Sequence record: PP359570
Direction: 5' to 3' (one strand)
Length of the DNA stretch: 64,000 nucleotides
Origin: Escherichia phage ALITA
The number at the start of each line of letters is the position of its first letter. The stretch's first letter is position 1. Below, piece by piece: positions 3,266 to 26,351 of this stretch. The position numbers were made by a program, and so were the translations under genes. The notes under the pieces were generated by a model. The model was not told the DNA's origin. It ran no database searches and worked only from the letters and a program-made list of their open reading frames with translations.

Positions 3266-3532
3266 ATGACAGAAAAGACTTATGGTAAAGAATTGATTGA
3301 GAAGCACGTATTGATTGATAATAAAGGTGGAGCAATCTTTATTTTTGAACCTGAATCAGTTCTTACTGAAAACGAAAATGGTAGCGTTAGCCTTAAAACA
3401 GAAAGTTTGGTAATTGACTTCCTTGCTCTTCTGGATGAAATGGGGCTTCCTCACGAAGAAGAAGCAGCTATTGCTTTGATTGCAGTTCTTCTGGAGAAAC
3501 GCGAAGCTGGTGAAATGACCCAGTATGCTTAA
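3266..3532 (+). CDS. hypothetical protein
   Basis: 88-aa ORF with strong SD aaaaaggag before ATG 3266. Confidence 0.6.
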   Translation: MTEKTYGKELIEKHVLIDNKGGAIFIFEPESVLTENENGSVSLKTESLVIDFLALLDEMGLPHEEEAAIALIAVLLEKREAGEMTQYA

Positions 3533-3734: not shown

Positions 3735-3840
3735 GCCTAGTAGGGTATTTGGTAATTCCGAGGCCATCAAAGCCTGAAAAATATGTTAGACCGTTTTGTC
3801 TAACTAAATACGAAATATGGTTCGATTCCATAACTAGGCT
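3735..3840 (+). tRNA. atypical long tRNA-like gene (about 106 nt), candidate anticodon TCA (would read UGA); Sec/Ser-like architecture
   Basis: Perfect 7-bp acceptor GCCTAGT/ACTAGGC, 6-bp D-stem with 4-nt loop, anticodon arm AGGC-CATCAAA-GCCT, long variable hairpin GTTAGAC-CGTTTT-GTCTAAC, canonical T-arm TATGG-TTCGATT-CCATA; no encoded CCA. Confidence 0.4.
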
Positions 3841-3875: not shown

Positions 3876-3904
3876 TTGACATTTACTTAGTTTTTTGTTA
3901 TAGT
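3876..3904 (+). promoter_or_regulatory. sigma70-like promoter (-35 TTGACA 3876-3881, -10 TATAGT 3899-3904)
   Basis: Consensus hexamers, 17-bp spacer, TG upstream of -10; precedes tRNA at 3916. Confidence 0.55.
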
Positions 3905-3915
3905 CATTATGAAAA

Positions 3916-3997
3916 CGGGGTGTATCTCACCTGACTTCTAATCAGGCGTTAACCGAGTAATTGGAGTATGCAGGTTCGAATCCTGTCACCCCGGCCA
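3916..3997 (+). tRNA. tRNA-Arg-like (anticodon TCT), atypical: no canonical D-arm, 23-nt extra region
   Basis: Perfect acceptor CGGGGTG/CACCCCG, anticodon arm CCTGA-CTTCTAA-TCAGG, T-arm GCAGG-TTCGAAT-CCTGT, GCCA 3' end; only 7 nt between acceptor and anticodon stem. Confidence 0.45.
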
Positions 3998-4015: not shown

Positions 4016-4044
4016 TTGACAAGCAAGATAGTTTTATGTTAGAT
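4016..4044 (+). promoter_or_regulatory. sigma70-like promoter (-35 TTGACA 4016-4021, -10 TTAGAT 4039-4044)
   Basis: Consensus -35, 17-bp spacer; precedes tRNA-Ser. Confidence 0.5.
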
Positions 4045-4060
4045 TTAAAGTATGGTAACA

Positions 4061-4329: not shown

Positions 4330-4415
4330 GGTAGATTGGTGAAATGGTAGCCACAACAGTTTGCTAAACTGTCGTCGGAAACGGCGTGTAGGTTCAAGTC
4401 CTACATCTACCGCCA
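4330..4415 (+). tRNA. tRNA-Ser (anticodon GCT), type II
   Basis: Acceptor GGTAGAT/ATCTACC, anticodon arm ACAGT-TTGCTAA-ACTGT, variable arm, T-arm GTAGG-TTCAAGT-CCTAC, CCA encoded. Confidence 0.8.
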
Positions 4416-4541
4416 AGTTATCTTTAATGTAGCTTGTAATCTTACTTTAGCAGAGTAAATCTTCGGCAAGTGGCAGTAACCACTTTACCGATAGCCCATA
4501 GTCAAGTGCCGCAAACACTGGCTATTTTAAAGATAATTTAT

Positions 4542-25715: not shown

Positions 25716-26351
25716 ATGGGAATACCATTTGATTTAAAACTTGATGGTTCTAATGATTTAGTGATGGTGGATGGTGATTTAACACTAACCACAACTAAAA
25801 GTGAAATTGCAGCACAGACGCTTGGAATAACACTTAGAACTTTCCGTGGAGAATGGTTCCTCAATTCTAATTTTGGGGTTCCATATCTGCAAGAGATTAT
25901 TGGTGTTGCCAAGAAGAAAGAGATTGTTGATCGCATTTTCTTATCAACTATCGCAAGTAATGTTTATATAGATAATATTAATTCATACACGTCCTCTTAT
26001 GATAGAGATGATAGGTATTACTCAATGAACGTTACTGTTACAGTTGGTGAACAAGTTGTTAGTGCGCTGTTCAGTACGCAGCCGTCTGAAGAATATATCT
26101 ATCCAGAAGCTGGTGATGATAATGCAGCAATCACTTGTGAAGCATTTGAAATTGTTGAATCTGCAAATAGACTCTATCGCTTTATTAACATTGTTGGTCT
26201 TCCTAGAGATACTTATTCTACTTGGTGGAATGAATGGTCTAACGAGGCATTGATTGAAAAATACCTTGTTAACGAAGCCAATAAAGGTCTTGCAACCAAT
26301 TACAACTATGCTATAACAGCAACAATGGGAGCTACAAATAATAATGGCTGA
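25716..26351 (+). CDS. baseplate wedge protein (gp25/GPW-like)
   Basis: N-terminal MGIPFDL...DGDL...IAAQTLGITLRTFRGEWFLNSNFGVPY resembles the GPW/gp25 family signature. Confidence 0.55.
   Translation: MGIPFDLKLDGSNDLVMVDGDLTLTTTKSEIAAQTLGITLRTFRGEWFLNSNFGVPYLQEIIGVAKKKEIVDRIFLSTIASNVYIDNINSYTSSYDRDDRYYSMNVTVTVGEQVVSALFSTQPSEEYIYPEAGDDNAAITCEAFEIVESANRLYRFINIVGLPRDTYSTWWNEWSNEALIEKYLVNEANKGLATNYNYAITATMGATNNNG

What the first reader, a model, noticed from the sequence alone, without database searches (positions are those of the whole stretch)
3916..3997. tRNA-Arg(UCU)-like gene without a canonical D-arm
Acceptor (CGGGGTG/CACCCCG), anticodon arm (CCTGA-CTTCTAA-TCAGG) and T-arm are all canonical, and a GCCA 3' end is encoded. 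Only 7 nt separate the acceptor from the anticodon stem, and a 23-nt region lies between anticodon and T-arm. Either a D-armless tRNA, a tRNA with an unusual extra arm, or a misfolded prediction.
Basis: seen in the sequence. Interest (0 to 1): 0.45.

Follow-up and report, generated by a model that had tools for sequence, protein, structure and literature searches.

The report
Rewired phage arginine tRNA family
This is a real, strongly conserved phage gene for an arginine tRNA (anticodon UCU) whose D-arm is not lost but wired differently from every textbook tRNA, and it belongs to a large, mostly unannotated family spread across phages of many bacteria.

Summary
Window 3916-3997 (+) encodes a tRNA-like RNA with a canonical acceptor stem, anticodon arm (UCU), T arm and GCCA end, but only 7 nt where the D-arm should be and 23 nt before the T arm. 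Rfam's tRNA model scores it 38.6 bits (cut-off 29); ARAGORN misses it. It is not a pseudogene. I collected 120 distinct UCU and 94 distinct ACG relatives, plus CCU and UCG copies, in which all stems covary. The new finding is a 3-bp long-range helix: C3926-U-C3928 of the linker pairs with G3955-A-G3957. This helix encloses the anticodon arm and is proven by covariation (94% paired, against 19-69% in shifted registers). It is followed by a D-loop-like motif, UAAnUGGA (A14, A15, G18, G19, A20). So the D-stem and D-loop exist, but with changed strand connectivity. The scaffold occurs only with arginine anticodons and keeps ArgRS determinants A20 and C35. It replaces a canonical tRNA-Arg(UCU) at a syntenic locus (Felixounavirus versus Sf14). 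Most arrays that carry it lack a canonical AGA decoder. The most likely function is an arginine-accepting elongator tRNA that supplies the AGA codons the phage over-uses. Expression and charging are untested. I found no prior description.

The parts
3876..3904 (+). Sigma-70-type promoter-like site, TTGACA-17 nt-TATAGT with a TG before the -10 hexamer. It ends 11 nt upstream of the tRNA 5' end.
   Evidence: Consensus scan, 11 of 12 matches. Inferred function only.
3916..3922 (+). Acceptor stem 5' strand, CGGGGTG (positions 1-7).
   Evidence: Pairs with 3987-3993. All 7 pairs show compensatory double changes across the family, and 99% of cells are paired.
3923..3925 (+). Connector T-A-T. The first two bases correspond to U8 and A9.
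   Evidence: The linker starts with TA in 214 of 214 family members, and no search pattern forced these positions in the relaxed scans.
3926..3928 (+). Helix X, 5' strand CTC. It takes the place of the D-stem 3' strand (22-25) and runs on through A3929 into the anticodon stem.
   Evidence: Pairs C3926:G3957, T3927:A3956 and C3928:G3955. Covariation is shown.
3929..3929 (+). Single unpaired A between helix X and the anticodon stem (position-26-like).
   Evidence: This nucleotide is unpaired with its potential partner in 105 of 120 sequences and 33 of 39.
3930..3946 (+). Anticodon arm: stem CCTGA/TCAGG and loop CTTCTAA, with anticodon TCT (UCU) at 3937-3939, U33, A37 and A38.
   Evidence: All 5 stem pairs show compensatory changes. 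The loop is identical to the canonical phage tRNA-Arg(UCU) of Sf14.
3947..3954 (+). 8-nt asymmetric bulge CGTTAACC between the anticodon stem 3' strand and the helix X 3' strand.
   Evidence: Its length is 3-10 nt across subfamilies. Its sequence is nearly invariant within the main subfamily.
3955..3957 (+). Helix X, 3' strand GAG. It takes the place of the D-stem 5' strand (10-13).
   Evidence: An alignment-free positional rule gives 94.2% paired cells, against 19-69% in every shifted register and 55.7 +/- 2.3% in partner shuffles (0 of 2000 reach the observed value). Pairs 1 and 2 are 100% Watson-Crick and use all four pair types.
3958..3965 (+). D-loop-like motif TAATTGGA, read as U13, A14, A15, N16, U17, G18, G19, A20.
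   Evidence: It is conserved where the pattern did not force it. With any base other than A after GG there are only 4 raw hits and 1 valid member in IMG/VR, against at least 120 stretches with A. Canonical phage tRNA-Arg genes carry the same motif in their D-loops.
3966..3969 (+). 4-nt tail GTAT leading into the T stem. The final AT is a candidate for position 48 (A15:U48 Levitt-type pair).
   Evidence: The last two nucleotides are AT in 210 of 214 members and were not forced by the patterns. The tertiary role is inferred.
3970..3986 (+). T arm: stem GCAGG/CCTGT and loop TTCGAAT (T54, psi55, C56, R57, A58).
   Evidence: 3 of 5 stem pairs show compensatory changes and 99% of cells are paired.
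3987..3997 (+). Acceptor stem 3' strand CACCCCG, discriminator G3994 and encoded CCA.
   Evidence: Read from the sequence. The discriminator is G or A in 107 of 120 UCU members, and CCA is encoded in 61 of 120.

Best explanation
Window 3916-3997 encodes a functional elongator tRNA-Arg(UCU) with a re-wired D domain. SHOWN: the acceptor, anticodon and T arms are canonical. SHOWN: there is no local D hairpin. Instead, three nucleotides of the 5' connector (C3926 U C3928) pair with three nucleotides 3' of the anticodon arm (G3955 A G3957). This 3-bp helix encloses the anticodon arm and sits where a D stem would stack on the anticodon stem. SHOWN: it is followed, as in a normal tRNA, by a D-loop-like strand UAAnUGGA, and then by a short tail ending in AU that enters the T stem. 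INFERRED: relative to a normal tRNA, the three junction connections are cyclically exchanged. The acceptor now leads into the '22-25' strand, the anticodon stem 3' end leads into the '10-13' strand, and the D-loop end leads into the T stem. INFERRED: the universal tertiary partners are all retained (U8, A14, A15, G18, G19, U48-like, T-loop T54/psi55/C56/A58), so the RNA can fold into a near-normal L shape. INFERRED: it is transcribed from its own sigma-70 promoter, matured by RNase P, charged by host ArgRS through A20, C35 and U36, delivered by EF-Tu, and used to read AGA (and AGG by wobble). These codons are common in the phage and rare in E. coli. It belongs to a large phage-borne superfamily restricted to arginine anticodons (UCU, ACG, CCU, UCG). 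The simplest explanation for that restriction is a single origin from a tRNA-Arg, followed by anticodon switches that keep ArgRS identity.
For: Gene and arms. Rfam tRNA scores 38.6 bits against a cut-off of 29. Compensatory changes occur in 7 of 7 acceptor, 5 of 5 anticodon and 3 of 5 T-stem pairs.

Long-range helix. In 120 distinct UCU sequences, a purely positional rule pairs the 3 nt before the last linker base with the 3 nt 5' of TAAnTGGA. It gives 94.2% paired cells, against 19-69% in the 24 shifted registers and 55.7 +/- 2.3% in shuffles (0 of 2000). Pair 1 is CG 101, GC 9, UA 8, AU 2. Pair 2 is UA 48, GC 40, CG 20, AU 12. At least 13 distinct fully complementary triplet combinations occur. 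The formal count on 39 equal-length sequences gives 100% pairing for the three pairs, with double changes at two of them. The helix also holds in the ACG set, with the mismatches concentrated in a few triplet types such as CCC:AGG, and in the Streptomyces phage copies, CCG:CGG and ACC:GGT.

D-loop and identity. The UAAnUGGA motif matches the D-loops of canonical phage tRNA-Arg genes. A after GG is essentially invariant: 1 valid exception against at least 120 stretches. PMC9976931 states that A20 is the main E. coli ArgRS determinant, together with C35, U/G36 and A/G73.

Arginine-only. In 2.95 Mb of held phage DNA containing 1263 ARAGORN tRNAs of all isotypes, an anticodon-blind scan found the scaffold with UCU 64, CCU 3, ACG 1 and UCG 1, and nothing else credible. 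The ACG pattern gave 95 valid distinct sequences. The Lys-UUU control gave none that are credible.

Functional equivalence. Sf14 (Mooglevirus) has a canonical tRNA-Arg(UCU) exactly where Felixounaviruses have the rewired gene, with roughly 95% identical flanks. The window's gene shares its 5' acceptor strand plus U8 A9, and 30 of 31 3'-terminal bases, with a canonical T5-like tRNA-Arg(UCU). Of 44 loci with at least 10 tRNAs and a member, only 3 also have a canonical Arg(UCU). The window's 15 other tRNAs include no Arg.

Demand. AGA is 27% of Arg codons, 10.6 per 1000, in the window's large ORFs. The Felix O1 paper noted that AGA is over-used and that the expected tRNA was missing (PMC3185647).

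Expression signal. A promoter matching 11 of 12 consensus positions lies 11 nt upstream.
Against: There are no expression, processing, aminoacylation or decoding data of any kind. The function is inferred from sequence.

The helix is short, at 3 bp, and only 2 Watson-Crick pairs plus a mismatch in several subfamilies. It closes an asymmetric 1 x 3-10 internal loop. Nearest-neighbour energy puts it at -21.4 kcal/mol, against -26.3 for the competing local hairpin and -22.7 for the three arms alone. RNAalifold on the equal-length class predicts only the three arms.

The L-shape and the tertiary pairs are argued by analogy and were not modelled.

Many motif positions were forced by the search patterns (ascertainment), although each was left free in at least one scan. 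Sequences are related, so counts are not independent events.

Nine loci carry both a rewired and a canonical Arg(UCU), so replacement is not strict.

Only the 64-kb window, not the whole phage genome, was checked for a canonical tRNA-Arg.

Whether ArgRS can reach the relocated A20 is unknown.
Confidence: 0.72

Rival explanations
1. It is a tRNA-like decoy that is not used in translation. It mimics tRNA-Arg in order to titrate or block a host factor, such as an anticodon nuclease of a defence system or of a colicin-D-like toxin (which cleaves tRNA-Arg isoacceptors), or ArgRS itself.
For: The core is non-canonical. Phage tRNAs are known to counter tRNA-cleaving defences (general knowledge, not tested here). 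The anticodon loop is strictly conserved, and some members carry a C38 variant, CTTCTAC. Restriction to arginine anticodons would also fit a decoy for a nuclease that attacks all tRNA-Arg species.
Against: The RNA keeps every feature needed for charging and for EF-Tu and ribosome use that a decoy of an anticodon nuclease would not need. These are the 7-bp acceptor stem with compensatory evolution, the discriminator, the often-encoded CCA, the T-loop consensus and A20. It replaces a canonical tRNA-Arg(UCU) at a syntenic site. It is largely mutually exclusive with canonical Arg(UCU) in large arrays that otherwise cover the code. The phage over-uses AGA.
Confidence: 0.1
2. It is a functional tRNA that is charged with an amino acid other than arginine. 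For example, SerRS or LeuRS might charge it because of the long region before the T arm, as in class II tRNAs and allo-tRNAs. It would then recode AGA.
For: The 23-nt region lies where class II tRNAs have their long variable arm, and the MFE fold draws a small hairpin there. ARAGORN draws two members as long-variable-arm tRNAs.
Against: The hairpin is not conserved: it shows one-sided changes only, its fourth pair fails, and it is impossible in other subfamilies. No helical variable arm exists once helix X is formed. The discriminator varies (G, A, U, C), which does not fit the strict discriminator requirements listed in PMC9976931, Table 1 for Leu (A73). All anticodons found are arginine ones, and A20 and C35 are invariant.
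Confidence: 0.04
3. It is a decaying tRNA pseudogene: a tRNA-Arg that suffered a D-arm deletion and an insertion in the variable loop.
For: Rfam aligns it exactly that way. ARAGORN rejects it. Most GenBank records leave it unannotated.
Against: More than 200 distinct sequences keep the architecture with compensatory changes in four helices. The non-stem positions are nearly invariant across phage families infecting Proteobacteria and Actinobacteria. A pseudogene would not show this.
Confidence: 0.02
4. It is a precursor that is cut and re-joined (intron removal, or a permuted gene processed through a circular intermediate) into a normal cloverleaf tRNA.
For: Split, permuted and intron-containing tRNA genes exist in archaea and algae (PMC3218864 title and abstract). 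Some phages encode RNA ligases (general knowledge).
Against: The acceptor 5' and 3' strands are in the normal order at the two ends. Circular permutation of the whole molecule therefore cannot restore the canonical order. Moving the GAG + D-loop segment in front of CUC would need two cuts and two ligations. No bulge-helix-bulge motif or group I intron signal was found (one search lists nothing else credible). ARAGORN's intron mode finds nothing here.
Confidence: 0.02

Closest known systems
Canonical bacterial and phage tRNA-Arg(UCU), for example Shigella phage Sf14 tRNA-Arg(TCT), the T5-like Epseptimavirus tRNA-Arg and E. coli argU
   Same: It has the same anticodon loop CUUCUAA, the same T-arm type and the same D-loop motif (A14, R15.., G18, G19, A20). 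It occupies the same genomic slot in Ounavirinae. The window's acceptor and T minihelix is nearly identical to that of a T5-like canonical tRNA-Arg. The ArgRS determinants A20, C35, U36 and G73 are all present (for the rules).
   Different: The strand order of the D domain differs. A canonical tRNA runs 10-13, D-loop, 22-25, 26, anticodon arm, variable loop. This one runs '22-25'-like strand, A, anticodon arm, bulge, '10-13'-like strand, D-loop, short tail. It has no local D hairpin and no separate variable loop.
D-armless mitochondrial tRNA-Ser(AGY/AGN) of metazoa
   Same: There is no D hairpin between the acceptor and anticodon stems, only a connector of a few nucleotides (PMC7609411, PMC11551756, PMC4013460). 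By coincidence both decode the AGN box, and some of the mitochondrial ones also carry UCU.
   Different: The mitochondrial tRNAs are confined to mitochondria with co-evolved synthetase and EF-Tu. They are shorter and are described as Y-shaped, with the D-loop/T-loop contact missing (PMC11551756). The phage RNA is full length (79 nt plus CCA). It keeps G18, G19 and a consensus T loop, has a covarying D-stem-equivalent helix, and must work with unmodified bacterial cytosolic machinery.
Class II tRNAs, tRNA-Sec and allo-tRNAs (long variable arm, 8/4 or 9/3 acceptor/T geometry)
   Same: They also have a long stretch between the anticodon and T arms, and they are also non-standard cloverleaves found partly by metagenome mining (PMC7609411).
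   Different: Those tRNAs retain a normal D hairpin and add a helical variable arm. Here the stretch contributes one strand of the D-stem equivalent plus the D-loop, and the acceptor/T geometry is the standard 7/5.
Permuted and split tRNA genes (red alga Cyanidioschyzon, Archaea)
   Same: The order of tRNA segments in the gene departs from the canonical order.
   Different: In those genes the rearrangement is at gene level and processing restores a normal tRNA. Here the acceptor halves are in the normal order, and the mature RNA itself is predicted to have the altered connectivity.
Engineered 'mini HisT' non-canonical tRNA evolved in E. coli (PMC11551756)
   Same: It is a tRNA without a D hairpin that E. 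coli translation can use.
   Different: That tRNA is synthetic, needed host adaptation and lacks a D-loop/T-loop elbow. The phage family is natural, abundant and keeps the elbow elements.

Membership tests
tRNA (Rfam RF00005; elongator tRNA) | Score at or above the curated gathering threshold of the covariance model | tested here: met
   38.6 bits against 29, with full-length model match 1-71.
tRNA (Rfam RF00005; elongator tRNA) | 7-bp acceptor stem, discriminator base and 3' CCA | tested here: met
   3916-3922 pairs with 3987-3993, followed by G3994 and CCA 3995-3997. All 7 pairs covary.
tRNA (Rfam RF00005; elongator tRNA) | 5-bp anticodon stem with a 7-nt loop, U33 and a purine at 37 | tested here: met
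   CCTGA / CTTCTAA / TCAGG. All 5 pairs covary.
tRNA (Rfam RF00005; elongator tRNA) | 5-bp T stem with a T loop of consensus TTCRANY | tested here: met
   GCAGG / TTCGAAT / CCTGT. 3 of 5 pairs covary.
tRNA (Rfam RF00005; elongator tRNA) | Local D hairpin (stem 10-13:22-25 closing the D loop) between the acceptor and anticodon stems | tested here: not met
   Only 7 nt lie between the stems. The Rfam alignment deletes the D-arm. A D-stem equivalent is formed instead by long-range pairing around the anticodon arm.
tRNA (Rfam RF00005; elongator tRNA) | A mature RNA that is aminoacylated and used on the ribosome | not testable with these tools
   No expression or charging data are available.
Bacterial tRNA-Arg (ArgRS substrate; identity set per PMC9976931) | C35 and U36 or G36 in the anticodon | tested here: met
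   The anticodon is TCT. All family anticodons are UCU, CCU, ACG or UCG.
Bacterial tRNA-Arg (ArgRS substrate; identity set per PMC9976931) | [quoted passage not shown] | tested here: inconclusive
   An A directly 3' of the GG of the D-loop-like motif (A3965) is essentially invariant: 1 exception against at least 120 stretches. Whether it occupies the variable pocket in three dimensions could not be tested.
Bacterial tRNA-Arg (ArgRS substrate; identity set per PMC9976931) | Discriminator A/G73 (U73 is also listed) | tested here: met
   The window has G3994. The UCU set has G 58, A 49, U 11, C 2.
D-armless mitochondrial tRNA-Ser(AGY/AGN) | No D hairpin; a short connector between the acceptor and anticodon stems | tested here: met
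   The connector is 7 nt.
D-armless mitochondrial tRNA-Ser(AGY/AGN) | Mitochondrial origin and serine identity, with loss of the D-loop/T-loop elbow elements | tested here: not met
   It is encoded by phages. It has arginine anticodons and A20. G18, G19 and a consensus T loop are retained.
Class II tRNA (helical long variable arm) | A conserved base-paired variable arm in addition to a D arm | tested here: not met
   The candidate hairpin shows only one-sided changes and its fourth pair fails in 19 of 39 sequences. It is absent in L087, in the second L134 copy and in other subfamilies.
Permuted or split tRNA gene | The 3' half is encoded upstream of the 5' half, or on another locus, with a processing motif | tested here: not met
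   The acceptor 5' and 3' strands flank the gene in the normal order. Intron mode finds nothing.
tRNA pseudogene | No purifying selection; stems decay without compensation | tested here: not met
   Four helices show compensatory changes in more than 200 distinct sequences.

The most novel reading that the evidence does not exclude
This is a natural tRNA fold with cyclically re-wired core connectivity (D-stem strands swapped around the anticodon arm, no variable loop) that the ordinary bacterial cytosolic machinery (RNase P, ArgRS, EF-Tu, ribosome) can use. It has spread through phages of Gram-negative and Gram-positive hosts because the re-wiring makes the phage's own tRNA-Arg invisible to a host or phage factor that reads the canonical D-arm and variable-loop geometry of tRNA-Arg, for example a tRNA-Arg-directed defence nuclease. 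The RNA stays chargeable through A20 and C35.
Probability: 0.2. Interest if true: 0.92.

Novelty: new variant of a known kind. Interest (0 to 1): 0.82.

Why it matters
Recent literature states that all known bacterial tRNAs are canonical cloverleaves and that natural armless tRNAs exist only in mitochondria (PMC11551756). If this RNA is charged and used, it is a counter-example. It is also not rare: it occurs in classic, easily grown phages (Felix O1, phi92, rV5-like, 121Q-like, T5-like Klebsiella phages, Streptomyces and Microbacterium phages) and in hundreds of metagenomic phage contigs.

It would show that the L-shape can be built with a different strand topology. That is directly testable by structure probing, cryo-EM and ArgRS kinetics in E. 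coli. It would also offer a natural scaffold for orthogonal or engineered tRNAs.

There are practical consequences too. The Felix O1 genome paper expected an AGA-decoding tRNA and did not find one. Standard annotation misses or mislabels these genes: ARAGORN overlaps only 7 of 158, and GenBank records say nothing, 'tRNA-OTHER', 'tRNA-TERM', 'tRNA-Phe(gaa)' or 'tRNA-Val'. Phage tRNA inventories and codon-adaptation analyses therefore systematically lack their arginine tRNAs.

The restriction to arginine raises an open question about why this isotype alone tolerates or needs the re-wiring.

Tried and rejected
1. Local hairpin CCGA/UUGG (3953-3956 with 3961-3964) from the MFE fold. Rejected as the conserved structure. 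It shows only one-sided changes, its fourth pair fails in 19 of 39 sequences, and it cannot form in L087, in the second L134 copy or in most other subfamilies. It also overlaps helix X.

2. Pairing of CUC with the second GAG (3964-3966). Rejected because that GAG is disrupted in L087 and absent in other subfamilies.

3. A weak D-like hairpin GAGU[AAnUGGA]GUAU next to the T stem. Rejected because it has no support outside the main subfamily.

4. ARAGORN in standard, relaxed, mitochondrial and intron modes. No usable call at this locus.

5. RNAalifold on the equal-length class. It recovers only the three classical arms, so energy-driven prediction neither supports nor contradicts helix X.

6. 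The GGATAG-type pattern. It yielded only 2 true members among 76 chance hits.

7. The genome-contig scan with the main-subfamily pattern. It gave only 2 hits, both on MAG contigs of about 40 kb. Only that one subfamily pattern was tested against cellular genomes, so 'phage-restricted' is shown only for it.

8. Supplementary files of the Sf14 paper. They hold no sequences, so I read the Sf14 gene directly and found it canonical. The paper's 'Arg_TCT' is therefore not a prior report of this fold.

9. Eight literature search attempts, one of which was rejected on a term error. They found no description, but subscription journals are not covered.

10. Pfam scan of neighbouring proteins. There is no tRNA-related enzyme next to the array; the neighbours are PRPP synthetase-like, NAPRTase and terminase.

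11. Not done: a CM build and search, a metagenome scan, and a check of the rest of the phage genome outside the window.
Full report
**1. What is at the coordinates**

The window is a phi92-like Escherichia phage (Justusliebigvirus), 98% identical to phage VEcB over the tRNA array. Positions 3916-3997 on the + strand read:

CGGGGTG TATCTCA CCTGA CTTCTAA TCAGG CGTTAACCGAGTAATTGGAGTAT GCAGG TTCGAAT CCTGT CACCCCG G CCA.

There is a 7-bp acceptor stem, a 5-bp anticodon stem with a CTTCTAA loop (anticodon UCU), a T arm with a consensus T loop, and an encoded GCCA. Seven nucleotides stand where the D arm should be, and 23 nt precede the T arm.

Rfam's tRNA model matches 3916-3994 end to end at 38.6 bits (gathering score 29). 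It does so only by deleting the D arm and inserting 20 nt in the variable region. ARAGORN finds 15 ordinary tRNAs in the same array but not this one. Relaxed, mitochondrial and intron modes give nothing usable.

**2. It is a conserved gene, not a relic**

The 82 nt recur over at least 80% of their length in 253 GenBank phage records. These include:

- Justusliebigvirus, including phi92 itself;
- Felixounavirus, including Felix O1 at NC_005282 25951-26032;
- Vequintavirinae;
- the jumbo Asteriusvirus PBECO4;
- Kuravirus;
- a T5-like Klebsiella Sugarlandvirus.

Between these groups the acceptor, anticodon and T stems differ by compensatory changes. The linker, the anticodon loop and the 23-nt region stay almost constant. 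On 39 distinct sequences, 7 of 7 acceptor, 5 of 5 anticodon and 3 of 5 T-stem pairs show double changes, with 97-100% of cells paired. No shuffle or slid register comes near this.

Almost all records leave the locus unannotated or cover it with an HNH endonuclease CDS. A few call it tRNA-OTHER, tRNA or tRNA-TERM.

**3. The actual structure**

The thermodynamic fold adds a small hairpin inside the 23-nt region. That hairpin shows only one-sided changes, and its fourth pair fails in half of the sequences.

Two divergent relatives pointed elsewhere: L087 and a second copy on contig L134, whose linker is TATGCCG. What they share with the main group is the motif TAAnTGGA(TA)G. This reads like the D loop of canonical phage tRNA-Arg genes. 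Compare Sf14 AAACGGATA, T5-like TAAGGGATA and L148 AACGGATA.

A relaxed scan of IMG/VR was anchored only on the anticodon loop, that motif and the T loop. It returned 121 distinct sequences, 120 of them with a 7- or 8-nt linker, and with regions of 18-28 nt. In these, the three nucleotides before the last linker base are complementary to the three nucleotides immediately 5' of the motif. Observed combinations include CTC:GAG, CGG:CCG, CCC:GGG, CAC:GTG, CGC:GCG, CAG:CTG, CAT:ATG, TCC:GGA, ACC:GGT, CTT:AAG and CAA:TTG.

I tested this with a purely positional, alignment-free rule:

- 94.2% of cells pair in this register.
- 19-69% pair in the 24 shifted registers.
- 55.7 +/- 2.3% pair when partners are shuffled, and 0 of 2000 shuffles reach the observed value.
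- The first two pairs are Watson-Crick in all 120 sequences and use all four pair types.
- The third pair is mismatched in 21 sequences.

The formal pair-count tool on 39 equal-length sequences gives 100% pairing for the three pairs, with double changes at two of them. The rule also holds in the ACG set and in copies from a Streptomyces phage.

In the window the helix is C3926:G3957, T3927:A3956 and C3928:G3955. It encloses the anticodon arm. A single A (3929) lies on one side and an 8-nt bulge (3947-3954) on the other.

Two caveats apply. Nearest-neighbour energy disfavours this helix (-21.4 against -26.3 kcal/mol). RNAalifold on the mostly uniform equal-length class predicts only the three classical arms. 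The evidence for the helix therefore comes from covariation, not from thermodynamics.

**4. How the parts map onto a normal tRNA (inference)**

- The CUC strand is continuous with the anticodon-stem 5' strand through one A. This is what strand 22-25 and position 26 do in a normal tRNA.
- The GAG strand is followed directly by U-A-A-n-U-G-G-A. This is what strand 10-13 followed by A14, R15, .., G18, G19, A20 does.
- The linker always begins with UA (214 of 214), matching U8 A9.
- The last two bases before the T stem are AU in 210 of 214. This gives a candidate U48 to pair with A15.
- The T loop has the universal T54, psi55, C56 and A58 positions.

All partners of the universal tertiary contacts are therefore present, but the chain visits them in a different order. 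Acceptor position 7 leads into the '22-25' strand. Anticodon-stem position 43 leads, by a short bulge, into the '10-13' strand. The end of the D loop leads into T-stem position 49. The variable loop that normally climbs the D-stem groove is no longer needed.

The RNA is therefore best described as a tRNA with a re-wired D domain rather than as D-armless. The three-dimensional claim was not modelled.

**5. Why arginine, and why a working tRNA**

- *Only arginine anticodons.* An anticodon-blind scan covered 2.95 Mb of held phage DNA containing 1263 ARAGORN tRNAs of every isotype. It found the scaffold with UCU (64), CCU (3), ACG (1) and UCG (1), plus two obvious mis-parses. The same scan with the Lys-UUU loop gave none that are credible.
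- *The arginine determinant is fixed.* With any base but A after the GG, the whole collection holds 4 raw hits and one valid member. With A there are at least 120 stretches. According to PMC9976931, A20 is the main determinant for E. coli ArgRS and is unique among tRNA families. It acts together with C35, U/G36 and A/G73.
- *Syntenic replacement.* Shigella phage Sf14 (Mooglevirus) has a canonical tRNA-Arg(UCU) between tRNA-Ile(GAT) and tRNA-Ser(TGA). Felixounaviruses have the rewired gene in the same place, with roughly 95% identical flanks. The window's gene shares its acceptor and T minihelix with a canonical T5-like tRNA-Arg(UCU).
- *Complementarity.* Among 44 loci with at least 10 tRNAs and a member, only 3 also have a canonical Arg(UCU), while a canonical Arg(ACG) is often present. 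The window's other 15 tRNAs include no Arg.
- *Demand.* AGA is 27% of Arg codons, 10.6 per 1000, in the window's large ORFs. The Felix O1 genome paper listed AGA as over-represented and remarked that a matching tRNA might have been expected (PMC3185647).
- *Expression signal.* A promoter, TTGACA-17-TATAGT, ends 11 nt upstream.

Together these make an arginine-accepting AGA decoder the best explanation, with confidence about 0.7. The existence of the helix itself is close to certain.

**6. Rivals**

- *Decoy for a tRNA-Arg-directed nuclease.* Not excluded. It explains neither the preserved charging and EF-Tu features nor the syntenic replacement (0.1).
- *Charging with another amino acid.* Disfavoured by A20 and C35, by the variable discriminator and by the lack of a helical variable arm (0.04).
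- *Pseudogene, or a processed or permuted precursor.* Effectively excluded by the covariation and by the normal order of the acceptor strands (0.02 each).

**7. Distribution and novelty**

Members occur in phages of Escherichia, Salmonella, Klebsiella and Shigella. They also occur in Streptomyces, Microbacterium and Mesorhizobium phages.

In Streptomyces phage Mildred21 one copy is annotated tRNA-Phe(gaa). It actually has a CTTCGAA loop, which is Arg-UCG. A second copy, Arg-ACG, is unannotated.

The main-subfamily pattern found only two hits in one genome each of 185,579 bacterial and archaeal species. Both are on MAG contigs of about 40 kb.

ARAGORN overlaps 7 of 158 members.

Seven completed literature searches and the reviews on non-canonical tRNAs gave no description of such a family. 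PMC11551756 states that natural armless tRNAs exist only in mitochondria. The library lacks most subscription journals, so prior description cannot be excluded.

I rate it a new variant of a known kind: a tRNA with a new core topology.

**8. Limits**

- Nothing here shows that the RNA is made, charged or used.
- The sample was gathered with sequence patterns that forced parts of the motif, although each part was left free in at least one scan.
- Sequences are related, so counts are not independent events.
- Only the window, not the whole phage genome, was checked for another tRNA-Arg.

Noticed in passing
window 3735-3839 (+): A second non-canonical tRNA-like gene lies between tRNA-Leu(TAA) and the rewired tRNA-Arg. 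It has acceptor GCCTAGT/ACTAGGC, a good T arm (TATGG-TTCGATT-CCATA) and an anticodon-like loop CATCAAA (UCA, opal-reading, with A at position 33). It also has a variable region of about 38 nt with a 7-bp stem (3786-3804). Rfam tRNA-Sec scores 29.4 bits, below the cut-off of 47. ARAGORN calls it only in intron mode, as tRNA-Leu(caa) with a 24-nt intron. It is present in VEcB and inny but absent from phi92 and Antha, where the spacer is about 120 nt shorter. It could be a suppressor-like tRNA, a degenerate tRNA or a small mobile insert.
   Followed up: partly
L493 (Streptomyces phage Mildred21, NC_042008.1) 3368-3443 and about 6860-6940: The gene annotated tRNA-Phe(gaa) has the loop CTTCGAA and the rewired scaffold (helix CCG:CGG, TAATGGA), so it is a rewired tRNA-Arg(UCG). 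A second, unannotated rewired tRNA-Arg(ACG) lies 3.4 kb downstream. A canonical tRNA-Arg(CCT) is in the same array. Streptomyces phage Yaboi has a related locus annotated tRNA-Val (H53).
   Followed up: partly
NC_005282.1 (Felix O1) 25951-26032 and many Felixounavirus records: The rewired tRNA-Arg gene lies under, or next to, a CDS annotated as HNH endonuclease or hypothetical protein in several records. Either an over-called ORF overlaps the tRNA gene, or homing endonuclease genes sit right beside it. HNH genes also flank members in AmPh_EK80 and Mildred21. That could bear on how the cassette moves between phages.
   Followed up: no
L134 (IMGVR_UViG_3300049893_000411) 12999-13078 and 13346-13425: One contig with 28 tRNAs carries two rewired arginine tRNAs of different subfamilies only about 270 nt apart. 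One is CCU with linker TATCTCA, the other UCU with linker TATGCCG. The contig also carries canonical Arg(ACG) and Arg(CCG).
   Followed up: partly
L492 (IMGVR_UViG_3300024520_000119) about 4376-4419: This is the only architecture-valid member found with a non-A base (U) at the position equivalent to A20 (TAATTGGT). It is a natural test case for the role of that base.
   Followed up: no
window 3876-3904 and 4016-4045 (+): The rewired tRNA-Arg and the following tRNA-Ser(TGA) each have their own near-consensus sigma-70 promoter-like site (TTGACA-17-TATAGT and TTGACA-18-TAGATT). This suggests single-gene promoter-tRNA cassettes rather than one long array transcript.
   Followed up: no
GenBank MG065689.1, MG065639.1, MG065645.1, MG065656.1 ('Campylobacter phage' A110a, A150, A145, C3; about 146.4 kb): Records labelled as Campylobacter jejuni phages contain the window's tRNA gene at 100% identity and have the size of phi92-like coliphages. 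The host label may be wrong, or these may be contaminants.
   Followed up: no
L130, L131, L132, L147 and the canonical tRNA-Arg on L148: Several members, and one canonical phage tRNA-Arg(UCU), carry C instead of A at loop position 38 (CTTCTAC). Anticodon-loop variants of phage tRNAs have been linked to escape from anticodon nucleases (general knowledge). I did not examine this.
   Followed up: no
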